A DNA stretch of 64,000 nucleotides from positions 19,716,001-19,780,000 of the forward strand of contig OX597829.1 in NCBI GenBank assembly GCA_951406725.2, in the 5' to 3' direction. This DNA is from Octopus vulgaris (taxonomy: Eukaryota). The notes under the pieces are model-generated. The model had not been told where the DNA came from and ran no database searches. It worked only from the letters and a program-made list of their open reading frames with translations. The translations under genes and the position numbers were made by a program. Numbering within the stretch: position 1 is the stretch's first letter; each line of letters starts with the position of its first letter. This document shows, in pieces, positions 21,460 to 46,739 of the stretch.

Positions 21460-23485
21460 AATTTGAACGTTACCCGACAATTACAAGCGACGACGCCTCG
21501 ACAAAGTCCGTCAACACGAAAACAAATTGCACTGGCGCGATTCGGTGTCGGTATTTATACGGAGCGTGGCGGCGGCGGGGAGGGACGGGTTATGACGGAG
21601 ATAATCGAGTGAGGTTTGCAGCGCCATAAGCGGATATGGAACGTGTCAGCGACTTAAAACAAGGGAGATAACTTTCTCATCACATGATATTTTACTGACA
21701 CATTCATATATATATATATATATATATATATATACAGACAGATAGATATAGATACATACACACGCATTTAAATTAATATACGCATACATGCATACATACA
21801 CACACACATAATTATATAGAGAGAAAGAGAAAGAGTGTGTATATGTATGTGTAAGTAAACAAATATAAATAGTGAGGAAACAGCATAGATGGGTGCATCC
21901 TGAATGAGGTAACATTTATTTCTATGGTCAGTGTTTACATATTTAACCATTTTTACATCCAAAATTATAACATACATATATATGTGTATGAATTTATATA
22001 CCTGTATATATATATATATATATATATATATATATATATGTGTGTGTGTGTATGTATATATATATCTATATATATATTTATGATTATGCGCGTATATATC
22101 TAGCGCTGGTGTTGATTTGCTTAAAAACATATGTGTTGATGTGTTTATAATGTTGATTATTTGATGCACACGCTTAATTTCTTCCATCGTGGGACTTTAT
22201 ATATTATACACGCTTCCAGGCATTTTATTCAAATGTACGTGTTGTATTTATATTACATCTTTTCATATCGTATTTCCTTCCAAATCATGTGTTGACGAGT
22301 ATTTTATAAAATCAATTTTCTTTTAAAGCCCTTGAAAACTGTACACATTTCTCAATAGTCATTTTATTTTAAATCAAAACATTATTTATTGGTTGTCGAC
22401 ATTAATTTTGTGTTGTTCCTGTATAGCTTTAACAGAGCTCGCTAAAACGAACTGAGCAATGATGTGATTTGGGGGTGGAGATTTACCGATTTTTTTTTTC
22501 CCCACAGCTTAATTATTTAAACAAAGGTAATATCCTATACATTTACTTACTTTAAAATGTAATTTCTTAAGATCTAAATTTATAGAATAATCTACCTGCA
22601 AAGAATAGTTAGGTTATAGAAGTGTGGTAATTAGTAACTCGTGTCTATCACCTGCACAGTCCTGTATAAACACTTTCTGACAGACATAATTACATTTGAC
22701 ATTTTAATCTTCGTTTCAAGACCACTAACTTTTTTTCATTTAAAAGAAAAATTATGTTTGCAAAGCTTATACAAATCCAATTTTAATTTTAAGATAACAA
22801 CCTTTTTATGTTGGGGGAAAAAAAAAAAACATTGTTGATATGAAAACTAGGCGGAAAAAAAAAAACTTTTTGGAAGTTCATTGTCTGTGAAGTGTGTGTG
22901 TGTGGTCGCGGATGTCTTAAAATTTTACGCAGTTTAAAAAGAAAAGAAAAGTACTGAATCATTTCGTTTTTGTTTACAAGTGTTAGACAGCCATACATAA
23001 ATGTTAAGGCTCATACAAATCTAAAAGAAGTGACAGACATACACACACACACATATCTTTTATCTTTTTGTTTCTATTATTGTACTGCGGCCGTGCTGGG
23101 GGGCACCGCTCTGAAAGGTTTATAGTTGAGCGAGACTATTTATTTTTAATCCTGGTACTTGTATTGGTTTCTTTCGATGACCTGCTAATTTACGGGAACG
23201 TAAACAAACCAACCTTGGTTGTCAAGCAACAGTGGTGGATCAAAACCACACGCATATTGTCACTATAACATATATCAGAAAGAGTCCGATGAGTTTTGAA
23301 CAAGGCTGTAGCTTGTTTTTTTTTTTAAATACACACACACACACACAATCTTTCGGTATTTGTTAATCGTACATACCAAAAGACTGCCTATACATTTATT
23401 AGACGACTGGTTTTTTCACTTGTCGTTAACCAAAATCCTGTCACAATGCTTTTGGTTGTCCAGTCAAGGGTGCCGTGAAGTAAGT
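21460..23485. promoter_or_regulatory. CpG-rich, probably bidirectional promoter region
   Basis: Dense CpG/GC core at 21470-21655 (ggcggcggcggggagggacggg). Candidate minus-strand first-exon donor GTAACG at 21474-21469. Candidate plus-strand first-exon donor gaa|GTAAGT at 23480. Confidence 0.5.
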
Positions 23486-24579
23486 CAGAAATATTTGATA
23501 TTGAAAGCAAACGTTGAATGAAACCAACTCCGACTGATATTCTACAAAGTGCTCGCTAAGTTTTTGTAATACGTAGAACAACATAAAAGCAGATAAATAC
23601 GAAACAAAGGTTAAACAACGCAGAAGAATCTCTTCAACTGAAAACCAAACACGTGAATGTGTGTGTACATACAAATACCAAAAGTTTGACTGTGTTTGGT
23701 TTCGCCGTGGAAGGTTGTCAAACTTTTATCCACAAAATTTCGATATCACAGTTGACTTCTGTATTAGGAAAAGGAAAAAAAAAAGAGCTTAAGTATTATA
23801 CTTTATCCATATGTACTGAGTTATTGTTTAGTCATGAAGAAAGCCATATACGTAGTTTGTGGAATATACACACTCTTAAATCATAAGATTTTAGAAACTT
23901 TGAGATATGAAATTGTTTTTAACACTGGGAAATCAAAGTAGAAAAGCTATATATATATATAACATCATGCAGAATATTGGGTTAAAAAACTCCTTGGCGG
24001 CGGGTGGGGAAAGAAGTTAAATGCTGACTGGGATTTGGACCCACATCTGTGAACATCACAGATCTGCTACCATTATTCCAATATAACACTTCAAATTTTT
24101 TTTATCATTTTAGAAGTTTCGTTCTTATAAGGAAAAATGGCATCCTGTTTACATAATAATAATAAAAAAAAAGAACCTTCTAGAGATTGAAATGAATCGC
24201 TTTTAACATTGGAAGTCGAAGAAGAAAACGTAGAATATATTTTAAGACATGGATAGAAAAAATGGGAAAAATTCGAAGTGTTGTTTTGGTATAATTTGTA
24301 CCGTGTCTGTCGTGTTCATAGAAGGTGTAGGTTCAAGTTCCACAAGTGAACCATGACTTTTTCCCTATCCAAGGTTTTTTTTTTTCAACCTAACATTTTA
24401 CTTGCCATTATTTATAGCTTTATCTATTTTGAGTTCCACCATTAAAAACAAATAATACATACATGCAGATTTCTGCCACCGAGTTACTAGAAACTAAAAA
24501 AAATGGCATGTTTAAGCTTCATAAAATATGCACGTATGTTACGTAATGCTTAAAAATACAAATTACTTTTTGTGTGCTT

Positions 24580-24960
24580 CTAAGTTTGCTTCCCAACCAC
24601 ATGGTTCTGGGTTTAGTCCCACTGCATAACACCTTGGGCAACTGTCTTTTACTGTAGCCTCAGGCCAACCAAAGCCTTGTGAGTGGGTTTGGCAGATGGA
24701 AACTGAAAGAAGCCCATGTATGTATGTATATAGCTCTGTGTGTGTGTGTGTCTCTTTATGTCTGTGTTTGTCTCACACCCATTTCTTGACAACTAGTATT
24801 GGTGTGTTTGTGTCCCCCATAACTTAGCAGTTCAGCAAAAGAGACCGATTGAATAAATACCAGGCTTACAAAAAATTAAATACTGGAGTTGGTTCATTAA
24901 GCTAAAAGTTGAAGGTGGTGCTCCAGCATGGTCTCAGTCTAATGACTGAAACACGTAAAA
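24580..24960 (+). mobile_element. SINE family A
   Basis: Family match from head to tail. Confidence 0.85.
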
Positions 24961-25275
24961 CACACACACACACACACACACACTGAGGAATTTATATGGA
25001 GTAACTTTACATTAAGGAGTGGAACGTACAATTTTCTGTAATTCACATGGTTCCAGCAAACAAAATGGAAAAGGTGTTGCCTTGGATGATGAGGAGGAAG
25101 ATGCACTGGAACAACCACTCTGACTCATGGAGCCTGCACATGCAGATAGCCATCTCCACTTAAATAATAGTGACCACGGACTGAGAATGCTGGAGGTCTC
25201 CACTGCCACAAACTCAACCAGAAACCTATCAGACTGAAAAGTGACCAGCAAGCCTCAACAAAGAATTGAAACCTG

Positions 25276-44396: not shown

Positions 44397-46054
44397 GCCT
44401 GGATTCTTATTCTTTTACTTGTTTCAGTCATTTGACTGCAGCCATGATGGAGCACTACCTTGAAAACCTCAGGAACATTTCTCATTTCTTTTCAAATTTG
44501 TTCCCTATTTCTTATAGCCATCCCTATTCACTACATCATAAAATGTTGTGTAGTCAAATACAATACAATAAGTGTCATCTCTGTTACGTAACCCCCTGTT
44601 ATGTAACTGGCCATATCCAGCCAACATAATCTACCTGTATTATCTTCAAACTGGCCAGATCTGGCTTCCCACACCTTCAATATTATTCTAAAAATAAACT
44701 ATGTCATTAAAATCTTAAAGCAATAAGATAATGCATGATTAATCATATAATAATTCTCCTTGTCATTGCGTTATTTAGCCTGTCGTTAATGCTTTCACGT
44801 GATTAGAGAAAGAAAAGAGGGGGAGAGAAGTGTCCATGACATGAGGTAAAGGGAATGTAATTGTAACTCTTTTATGTGATTAGTTGAAAGGAAAGGGAGG
44901 AGAGAGAAAAAGAGGATAAGGCAAATAGTGAGACAAAAAGAGGGAGAAGTTTCCCTGACATGAAGTAGGAGGAATGTAATATTTATTACATCATTTAAAA
45001 AGTTAGTTGAAGGTAGAGGAGGAAAGTTAAAAATATAATTTTAGCAGAGCAGTGATGTTCTGATGGTGAGGTTAAAGAAAGCAAAGAGAGAGGCAGAAGA
45101 GATATGATGATGATGTTGGTGGTGGTGGTGGTGGTAATTGGTTAGTGAAAAGTGTTTCTTTTATTTTAGTTGAACTAAGTTTTTATTTCACCTATCACTA
45201 ATGCAGGTGCATAAGTGAAATTCCGCGAAATATTCATGCTTATTTACACGGCAAATATATGCAATTTAACTAAAGGTTGTATTATATGTATGGGATATTT
45301 TTTTATGGGGAAAATGGAAAAATAAGAGTGAATGTTTATGAGTTCTGTGTATTAAGTCTATAAATTGTGCATAAAGTATATATAGTGCGTTAAATAATCA
45401 TCATATTCCAATTTCCTTCACTTTTCAATGATTAGCAGATGAGCGACTATCTTTTGTTACAGACACAATACAGGCTACACTTTCAGGTTTTTGAGAAAAT
45501 TTCCAGAAATAATCCAACAGGTTTACCATTAATTCTATGAAATATTCACAGGTCCCTCTAGTTCATATTATTGTGAATGTTTGTTCCTTCCTGAGCCATG
45601 CCCGGCTCATAAGGGCTGGTTTCCTTGGTGTATAGGTTCCCCACCTAGACACCGGTCCGTCGCAGGTGAGCTGCAAGATGCAGAAGGAAAGAGTGAGAGA
45701 AAGTTGTAGTGAAAGAGTCAGCAGAAGTTCGCCATTACCTTCTGCCGGAGCCGCATGGAGCTTAGCTGTATCGCTCATAAGCACACACATCGCCTGGTCT
45801 GAGATTCGAACCTGCGATCCCTTGACTGCGAGTCTGCTGCTCTAACCACTAGGCCATGTGCATCCACATTATTGTAAATAAATGTTACATTTGTTAGAGA
45901 AATCTGAATGCTAAAGAGGTACATGTAACTTTTGCCTTACTCACCCAATTGCTGTTTATACACATTAGTTTAATGAAATAAATATGAACTTACATGATTC
46001 ATATTCAATCATTCATAACTACCTTTGTGAATATTTTCTGTATTCTGTGAAAAT

Positions 46055-46430
46055 AGGTGTGGCTGTGTGTTAAGATTTCTGCTTCCTAACCATATGGTTC
46101 CAGGTTCAGATTCAGTCCTACTGCATGAACGCCTTGGGCAAGTGTCCTCTACTATTGTCTCAACCCAACCAAAGCCATGTGAGTGGGTGAGTGGATTTAG
46201 CTGACAGAAACTGACAAAAAAACCCAATTGTGTGTGTGTCTTTCTCCACTAGCTTGATAACTGGTGTTGGTGTGTTTATGTCTCTGTAACTTAGCAGTTT
46301 GGCAAAAAATACTGATAGAATAAGTGCCAGGCTTAAAATAAAAGAAATAAGCACTTGGGCTGATACACTTCATTAGAATGCTTCAAGGCAGTGCTCCAGC
46401 ATGGCTGCAGTCAGATGACTGAAACAAGTG
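46055..46430 (+). mobile_element. SINE family A
   Basis: Family match. Confidence 0.8.
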
Positions 46431-46593
46431 GGAGATTAAAAATATGTTTTTTATTATGAACACTGACTATTCTTTTAGAATCATTAATAAACAATTTTCT
46501 GCTCACAGCTCTTTTCAATTAATTATTTTAAAATTCTTTTTCAGACTTTATGATTAAAATTAGACACGCTAGCTTTAGTTTGTCGAGGTGACA

Positions 46594-46739
46594 ATGCCGT
46601 TGTTTTACTCAGTTATTGCCAGGGGCTGTACAGTCCTTGCACGATATGCTATGTGCACGGGTAACTTTGCTGAAGTTACAGAACAGATACTTAGTCGCAT
46701 ACCTCCAGAAGATGGAAAACTAACATATTCTCATGTTAA
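46594..46739 (+). CDS. VAMP7: VAMP7 (TI-VAMP) coding exon 1, longin domain start
   Basis: MPLFYSVIARGCTVLARYAMCTGNFAEVTEQILSRIPPEDGKLTYSHV; donor GTAAGT; 146 nt, phase 2. Confidence 0.95.

What the first reader, a model, noticed from the sequence alone, without database searches (positions are those of the whole stretch)
23400..46739. Intronless DTYMK apparently nested in VAMP7 intron 1 on the same strand: one promoter, two unrelated proteins
Seen: DTYMK is a single coding exon with a strong acceptor 46 nt before its ATG (36293) and AATAAA shortly after the stop. The first coding exon of VAMP7 also begins at an acceptor (46544). The 37-46.5 kb interval is repeat-filled and CpG-poor with no promoter-like sequence. 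A strong donor (gaa|GTAAGT, 23480) lies in the CpG domain. Established: vertebrate DTYMK is multi-exon and VAMP7 has a non-coding first exon. Inference: a retroposed DTYMK captured the VAMP7 leader exon. The splice/polyadenylation choice would then partition output between a dTTP-synthesis enzyme and a vesicle R-SNARE, possibly a proliferation-versus-neuron switch.
Basis: partly seen in the sequence, partly recalled or inferred. Interest (0 to 1): 0.78.

Follow-up and report, generated by a model that had tools for sequence, protein, structure and literature searches.

The report
Octopus retrogene borrows VAMP7's first exon
In octopods an intact, intronless copy of the thymidylate kinase gene sits inside the first intron of the vesicle-fusion gene VAMP7 and very likely splices from the same first exon, a real and old arrangement but a new case of a known "hitchhiking retrogene" design.

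Summary
Transcript contigs from 3 studies join VAMP7 exon 2 (46545) to an exon ending at 21908 or 21926, not 23479, so DTYMK (36294-~37050) lies in VAMP7 intron 1. DTYMK contigs start at acceptor 36294 with overhangs of the same length and end letters in 2 of 4 runs. Annotated octopus proteins begin with the two residues that the 21908 exon supplies. O. bimaculoides RefSeq numbers DTYMK, VAMP7, VAMP7, DTYMK as consecutive isoforms, which fits two donors times two acceptors. A five-exon parent survives on another contig. Both copies form an octopod-only clade, and the copy neighbours VAMP7 in Argonauta too. This is a retrogene using its host's first exon, like mouse Taf9/Ak6. One extra: donor 21908 adds an in-frame ATG and a 17-residue basic extension, weakly like a mitochondrial presequence. 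No evidence was found for a proliferation-versus-neuron switch.

The parts
19001..24500 (.). CpG-rich domain holding the shared promoter region; densest core about 21450-21650. Transcription start not located.
   Evidence: CpG o/e 0.68-1.34 per 500 nt; sequence
21880..21908 (+). 3' end of the shared first exon, donor 1 (GT at 21909); ATG at 21904-21906 is in frame with DTYMK
   Evidence: VAMP7 contig overhang in X6 and X13 equals this stretch; 21862-21945 has one match in the genome; P0009 and P0001 begin MR
21909..21926 (+). 18-nt extension of the shared exon to donor 2 (GT at 21927); puts a stop two codons after the ATG at 21904
   Evidence: VAMP7 contig overhang in X14; translation
36294..36339 (+). 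5' part of the DTYMK exon: codes 15 residues of a 17-aa extension with donor 1, is 5' UTR with donor 2
36340..36972 (+). Intronless DTYMK (thymidylate kinase) retrogene CDS, 210 aa, intact
36973..37183 (+). DTYMK 3' UTR with AATAAA at 37030 (also ATTAAA 37109, AATAAA 37210); terminal exon
   Evidence: contig ends 37050-37183 in 4 of 4 runs; signals
46545..46739 (+). VAMP7 exon 2 (first coding exon, ATG 46594)
48900..63975 (+). Remaining VAMP7 coding exons (7 further tblastn segments; bounds approximate); single copy in the genome
23345..23479 (+).

Best explanation
An intact, intronless thymidylate kinase gene lies in the first intron of VAMP7 on the same strand; it likely arose as a retrocopy in the octopod ancestor and is very likely expressed by splicing from VAMP7's own first exon. 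Shown: VAMP7 transcripts splice from an exon ending at 21908 or 21926 across 24.6 kb; DTYMK transcripts are spliced at 36294 and end near its own AATAAA; a five-exon parent survives elsewhere; both copies are octopod-specific and older than the Argonauta-Octopus split. Inferred: (a) DTYMK's upstream exon is that same exon; (b) DTYMK works as an alternative terminal exon, so each pre-mRNA gives either DTYMK (splice to 36294, cleave near 37050) or VAMP7 (skip to 46545); (c) donor 21908 gives a 227-aa form and donor 21926 a 210-aa form, while VAMP7 is the same 219 aa from both; (d) the most likely benefit is steady, housekeeping-type supply of dTMP kinase from a borrowed promoter, not a functional link to vesicle traffic.
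For:: in 3 of 4 runs (3 studies) the VAMP7 contig begins with 29 letters matching 21880-21908 or 21898-21926, each ending exactly at a GT; the stretch is unique in the genome and VAMP7 is single-copy. DTYMK contigs in X6 and X14 also carry 29 letters before 36294 and end in the same letters as the VAMP7 overhang of the same run (AG in X6, G in X14). Both exons start with A, so 29+1 = 30 shared letters is the overlap expected at a fork of a 31-mer graph (k = 31 taken from the tool's text; the reading is my inference); this genome's own annotated protein P0009 and O. bimaculoides XP_014771371 start MRNYSS, which is what donor 21908 joined to 36294 gives. O. bimaculoides XP_014771371 (X1, DTYMK 227 aa), 372 and 373 (X2, VAMP7), 374 (X3, DTYMK 210 aa) are consecutive. 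Argonauta GAB1604513 (VAMP7) and GAB1604514 (DTYMK-like) are adjacent on a contig of one length; parent on C25 with 4 introns, all absent from this copy; pN 0.27 against pS 0.79; octopod parent plus retro clade at 99/97.
Against: The letters of the DTYMK overhang were never seen; sharing rests on length, end letters and annotation. The VAMP7 overhangs give only 29 letters on the leader side, under the tool's 31-letter rule for bridging. The runs are only guessed to be RNA and are contigs, not reads. In X10 the DTYMK contig runs 135 letters upstream without a fork and does not end in G, so it uses some other exon end; in X1 it has no overhang; X1 and X10 VAMP7 contigs start at 46570 and 46569 with no leader link listed. 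RefSeq models may come from the same kind of RNA data and are automatic. No poly(A) remnant or convincing target-site duplication was found. The retro clade alone has weak support (81/71).
Confidence: 0.87

Rival explanations
1. DTYMK is nested in VAMP7 intron 1 but is driven mainly by its own first exon or promoter; the shared exon is a minor route.
For: X10's DTYMK contig has a 135-letter overhang with no fork at 29 letters and a non-G end. Candidate donors 21609 and 23480 both end in A.
Against: X6 and X14 show the fork pattern for both genes; annotated 227-aa proteins in two species need the 21908 exon; consecutive RefSeq isoforms.
Confidence: 0.07
2. The splice and polyadenylation choice is a regulated switch between DTYMK in dividing cells and VAMP7 in neurons.
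For: The layout makes the two products mutually exclusive per pre-mRNA, so regulation is possible in principle. A review notes that such chimeric transcripts may in theory lower host output (PMC5408686, passages).
Against: All 4 runs hold both products. The parent DTYMK is retained and is as good a candidate for the proliferation role. No functional link between the proteins turned up (0 papers with both terms). In zebrafish, TMPK activity is higher in the head than in the body, in larvae and adults (PMC8962455, passages), so the enzyme is not simply non-neuronal.
Confidence: 0.1
3. The copy came from a DNA-level duplication and lost its introns later.
For: No poly(A) tail or clean target-site duplication is left.
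Against: All 4 introns are gone with no gap in a 205-codon alignment; the parent is on another contig; synonymous sites are saturated, so the hallmarks would have decayed.
Confidence: 0.03
4. The shared first exon ends at 23479.
For: Good consensus donor (score 4.2 against 2.4 and 2.3 for the used ones); a non-G end would fit X10.
Against: 0 of 3 visible VAMP7 overhangs match it; it cannot give the MR start of the annotated proteins.
Confidence: 0.03

Closest known systems
Retrogenes expressed with upstream exons of a host gene, e.g. mouse Taf9 retrocopy in Ak6 (Carelli et al. 2016, PMC4772013, passages; 'hitchhike' scenario in PMC5408686, passages)
   Same: Retrocopy in a host intron, spliced to host upstream exons and so using the host promoter; host ORF intact. 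13 human and 14 mouse cases are reported.
   Different: Mollusc lineage; parent kept alongside; two donors 18 nt apart switch an in-frame host-derived ATG on and off for the retrogene.
Cholinergic gene locus ChAT/VAChT (tick study PMC7524744, passages)
   Same: Same layout: shared exon 1, and a single exon carrying a whole ORF inside the other gene's first intron.
   Different: ChAT and VAChT serve one pathway and the layout is found across metazoans; DTYMK and VAMP7 have no known link and the layout appears limited to octopods.
Intronic imprinted retrogenes Mcts2/H13 and Nap1l5/Herc3 (PMC5408686 passages; PMC3467052 listing only)
   Same: An intronic retrogene is tied to the host's choice of poly(A) site.
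   Different: Mcts2 has its own methylation-controlled promoter; here the evidence points to use of the host's first exon.

Membership tests
Functional retrogene | Lacks the introns of a parent gene that lies elsewhere | tested here: met
   Parent on C25 has 5 coding exons and 4 introns (3651, 1566, 1850, 1697 nt) and translates to P0010; the window copy aligns over 205 codons with no gap.
Functional retrogene | Intact ORF under purifying selection | tested here: met
   No stops; 93% identical to O. bimaculoides and 71% to Argonauta (parent 98% and 69%) over the core; pN 0.27, pS 0.79 against the parent.
Functional retrogene | Transcribed and spliced | tested here: met
   Contigs start at the acceptor with a foreign overhang in 3 of 4 runs; the runs are only guessed to be RNA.
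Functional retrogene | Poly(A) remnant and target-site duplication | tested here: inconclusive
   Only an A-rich 12-mer at 36143 and 37218 and shorter words are shared between the flanks; the copy is old.
Host-exon (hitchhiking) retrogene | Lies in a host intron on the same strand | tested here: met
   VAMP7 splices 21908/21926 to 46545 across the DTYMK exon.
Host-exon (hitchhiking) retrogene | Spliced to the host's upstream exon | tested here: met
   Indirect but from three sides: fork pattern in X6 and X14, MR start of P0009 and P0001, consecutive RefSeq isoforms. Overhang letters not seen; X10 differs.
Host-exon (hitchhiking) retrogene | The shared exon and promoter belonged to the host before the insertion | not testable with these tools
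   Needs the VAMP7 first exon in an outgroup genome; none is held.
Thymidylate kinase (DTYMK/TMPK) | Pfam Thymidylate_kin domain with P-loop, DRY and lid motifs | tested here: met
   PF02223 155.7 bits against cut-off 27; motifs align with solved TMPKs.
Thymidylate kinase (DTYMK/TMPK) | dTMP kinase activity | not testable with these tools
   Needs an assay.
Cholinergic-locus-type coupling | The two products act in one pathway and are co-regulated for that reason | not tested
   No paper with both VAMP7 and thymidylate kinase in the library; layout alone matches.
Mitochondrial presequence (17-aa extension) | Basic, acid-free, amphipathic N-terminus that directs import | tested here: inconclusive
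   First acidic residue at 31, 4 R and 1 K in 30 residues, but 18-residue hydrophobic moment only 0.37; 65 of 1265 random intron stretches match on stops, acids and basics. No targeting predictor was available.

The most novel reading that the evidence does not exclude
The host's first exon gave the retrogene a new start codon, and the choice between two donors 18 nt apart switches a mitochondrial targeting peptide on thymidylate kinase on or off. Octopods would then have split cytosolic and mitochondrial dTTP supply between the parent gene and a retrogene run from the VAMP7 promoter, replacing the long N-terminal extension seen in the cuttlefish enzyme.
Probability: 0.17. Interest if true: 0.7.

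Novelty: new member of a known kind. Interest (0 to 1): 0.42.

Why it matters
It is a well-supported, old invertebrate case of one promoter and first exon serving two unrelated proteins; I found no paper on it in the searches, although automatic annotation already appears to merge the two genes. In practice, gene-level counts, knock-outs of the first exon or promoter reporters for octopus VAMP7 will also touch DTYMK. If the extension proves to be a targeting signal, it would be a clear example of a retrogene gaining a new location from five host-exon bases and former intron sequence.

Tried and rejected
Donor 23480 as the shared exon: rejected for VAMP7 in 3 of 3 informative runs. Retrogene replacement (parent lost): rejected, the parent is intact here and annotated in three Octopus species and Argonauta. 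Contig depth: DTYMK to VAMP7 ratios were 0.06-0.13 in the 4 runs, but the tool says contig depth cannot rank genes, so I do not use it for or against a switch. One search listed no holder on record as RNA. A direct view of the leader-to-DTYMK joint was not obtained: the stretch between holds a 1-kb (AT)n run, and repeats crowded the loose-end table so the DTYMK overhang letters were not printed. A 105-106-nt cassette exon to explain X10: only one poor candidate, at 30732-30837. Target-site duplication: nothing beyond low-complexity words. dS to the parent is saturated, so no dN/dS or date. A neighbouring gene sharing the CpG domain: 119 of 190 filtered ORFs from window 1-21900 and the 10 kb before it were scanned; 2 weak Pfam hits, both under the curated cut-off. 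Earlier findings: none. Literature: searches gave 0 papers; the listings showed nothing on this locus. No supplements were read; Table S4 of PMC4772013 would list further host-exon cases. Tree used 8 cephalopod rows and 18 of the 150 listed library proteins as unnamed outgroups; P0003 (158 aa, apparently faulty model) and P0004 (near-copy of P0011) were left out, and P0007 was cut before its aberrant C-terminus.
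Full report
Setting. The window is G000:C16:19716001-19780000 in a 2.8-Gb genome. Source names attached to the VAMP7 and parent proteins, with contig lengths equal to C16 and C25, point to Octopus vulgaris.

Observation. The DTYMK ORF 36340-36972 is one uninterrupted exon, 210 aa, Pfam PF02223, with P-loop, DRY and lid motifs aligned to solved thymidylate kinases. 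An AG at 36292-36293 follows a T-rich tract 46 nt before the ATG, and AATAAA lies at 37030. VAMP7 has 8 coding segments from 46594 to 63975 on the same strand and is single-copy. The CpG-rich domain spans about 19-24.5 kb.

Which exon does VAMP7 use? I laid contigs of 4 runs on 46450-46790. In X6 and X13 the VAMP7 contig starts with window 21880-21908; in X14 with 21898-21926; X10's contig starts inside the exon at 46569. Each overhang ends at a GT (21909, 21927), and none matches 23451-23479. The stretch 21862-21945 has one match in the genome. So VAMP7 intron 1 is 24.6 kb and contains DTYMK. Caveats: the overhangs have 29 letters, under the tool's 31-letter rule for bridging, and the runs are only guessed to be RNA.

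Does DTYMK use the same exon? In one search (33200-47040; X6, X10, X1, X14) DTYMK contigs begin at the acceptor with foreign sequence in 3 of 4 runs. In X6 and X14 both the DTYMK and the VAMP7 contig carry 29 letters before the exon, and the last letters agree within each run (AG in X6, G in X14), as donors 21908 and 21926 predict. Both exons start with A, so 30 shared letters is the overlap expected where a 31-mer graph forks; the VAMP7 contig would not start there without a second path. Separately, this genome's annotated protein P0009 and O. bimaculoides XP_014771371 are 227 aa and start MRNYSS, which only the 21908 donor yields of the three tested. O. bimaculoides accessions run 371 (isoform X1, DTYMK 227 aa), 372 and 373 (X2, VAMP7 219 aa), 374 (X3, DTYMK 210 aa). 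That these are one locus is my inference from the numbering; it fits two donors times two acceptors exactly. Against: X10's DTYMK contig has 135 letters upstream, no fork and a non-G end, so a further exon end exists (candidates 21609 or 23480, untested); X1's has no overhang. The DTYMK overhang letters were never printed.

Origin. A second DTYMK on C25 has 5 coding exons and translates to annotated P0010. The window copy lacks all 4 introns, is 59% identical over 205 codons, with pN 0.27 and pS 0.79. Argonauta has both copies, and its window-type copy (71% identical) has the accession next to VAMP7 on a contig of the same length. In Sepia pharaonis the one DTYMK found at E 1e-60 and VAMP7 lie on contigs of different length. 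A tree with 18 unnamed outgroups joins the octopod parent and retro copies at 99/97, apart from the two decapodiform-type rows; the retro clade alone has 81/71. Both octopod copies read A where the cuttlefish enzyme and PDB 1e9c read Q in the WCKQPD motif, though several outgroups also have A. The duplication therefore most likely falls in the octopod stem. Between Octopus and Argonauta both copies changed about equally (71% and 69%); between the two Octopus species the retro copy changed more (93% against 98%).

How it likely works. One promoter in the CpG domain makes a pre-mRNA whose first exon ends at 21908 or 21926. Splicing to 36294 with cleavage after 37030 gives DTYMK; skipping to 46545 gives VAMP7. 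For VAMP7 the ATGs at the exon end form only short upstream ORFs of 2-5 codons, so the protein is the same from both donors. For DTYMK, donor 21908 puts the ATG at 21904 in frame (227 aa); donor 21926 closes it after two codons and adds an out-of-frame upstream ORF ending 10 nt before the main ATG (210 aa). The upstream ATG has T at -3 and the main one A, so leaky scanning could give both forms from donor 21908 (inference from the general Kozak rule, recalled). The plainest reading is a retrogene that survived by borrowing a broadly active promoter.

The extension. The first 30 residues of the long form have no acidic residue and 5 basic ones, while the parent has an acidic N-terminus and the cuttlefish enzyme a 59-residue extension. 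Mammalian DTYMK appears to be in both mitochondria and cytosol (PMC12493167, passages). But the 18-residue hydrophobic moment is low (0.37), 65 of 1265 random intron stretches do as well, and only two Octopus species show the extension. I give a targeting role 0.17.

The switch idea. All 4 runs hold both products, the parent is retained, and no paper in the library holds both VAMP7 and thymidylate kinase. [quoted passage not shown] Nothing here supports a proliferation-versus-neuron switch; it is not excluded.

Comparison. Retrocopies expressed with upstream host exons are a described class: 13 human and 14 mouse cases, including Taf9 in Ak6 (PMC4772013, passages), called the hitchhike scenario in a review (PMC5408686, passages). 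The same layout is known from ChAT/VAChT (PMC7524744, passages). My searches found no paper on this octopus locus, in a library that lacks most subscription journals.

Verdict. A new member of a known kind; interest 0.42.

Noticed in passing
window 40869-41869 (+): Mariner-type transposase remnant in VAMP7 intron 1 (Pfam Transposase_1), split over two frames; other copies are present in the runs.
   Followed up: no
window 34411-35284 (+): Two overlapping ORFs of 153 and 182 aa, the second proline- and lysine-rich, 1 kb upstream of the DTYMK exon; no Pfam hit. Possibly a decayed retroelement ORF.
   Followed up: partly
window 46550-46591 (+): A 13-codon out-of-frame upstream ORF in VAMP7 exon 2 ends 2 nt before the VAMP7 ATG; a 4-codon upstream ORF at 21889 ends directly at the ATG at 21904.
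   Followed up: no
window 21450-21650: Densest CpG and GC-box stretch, with a candidate donor at 21609; likely near the start site. 135 nt back from this donor falls at 21474, matching X10's overhang length if it starts there.
   Followed up: partly
window 27489-28495: A 1-kb (TA)n run in the shared intron.
   Followed up: no
P0003 (O. sinensis model): The annotated orthologue is 158 aa with an aberrant middle, probably an assembly or annotation error.
   Followed up: no
P0004, P0011 (cuttlefish DTYMK): A 59-residue basic N-terminal extension ahead of a second Met; shorter forms starting at that Met are also in the cluster.
   Followed up: partly
window 57999-58571 (+): Reverse transcriptase fragment of a LINE inside a VAMP7 intron.
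   Followed up: no
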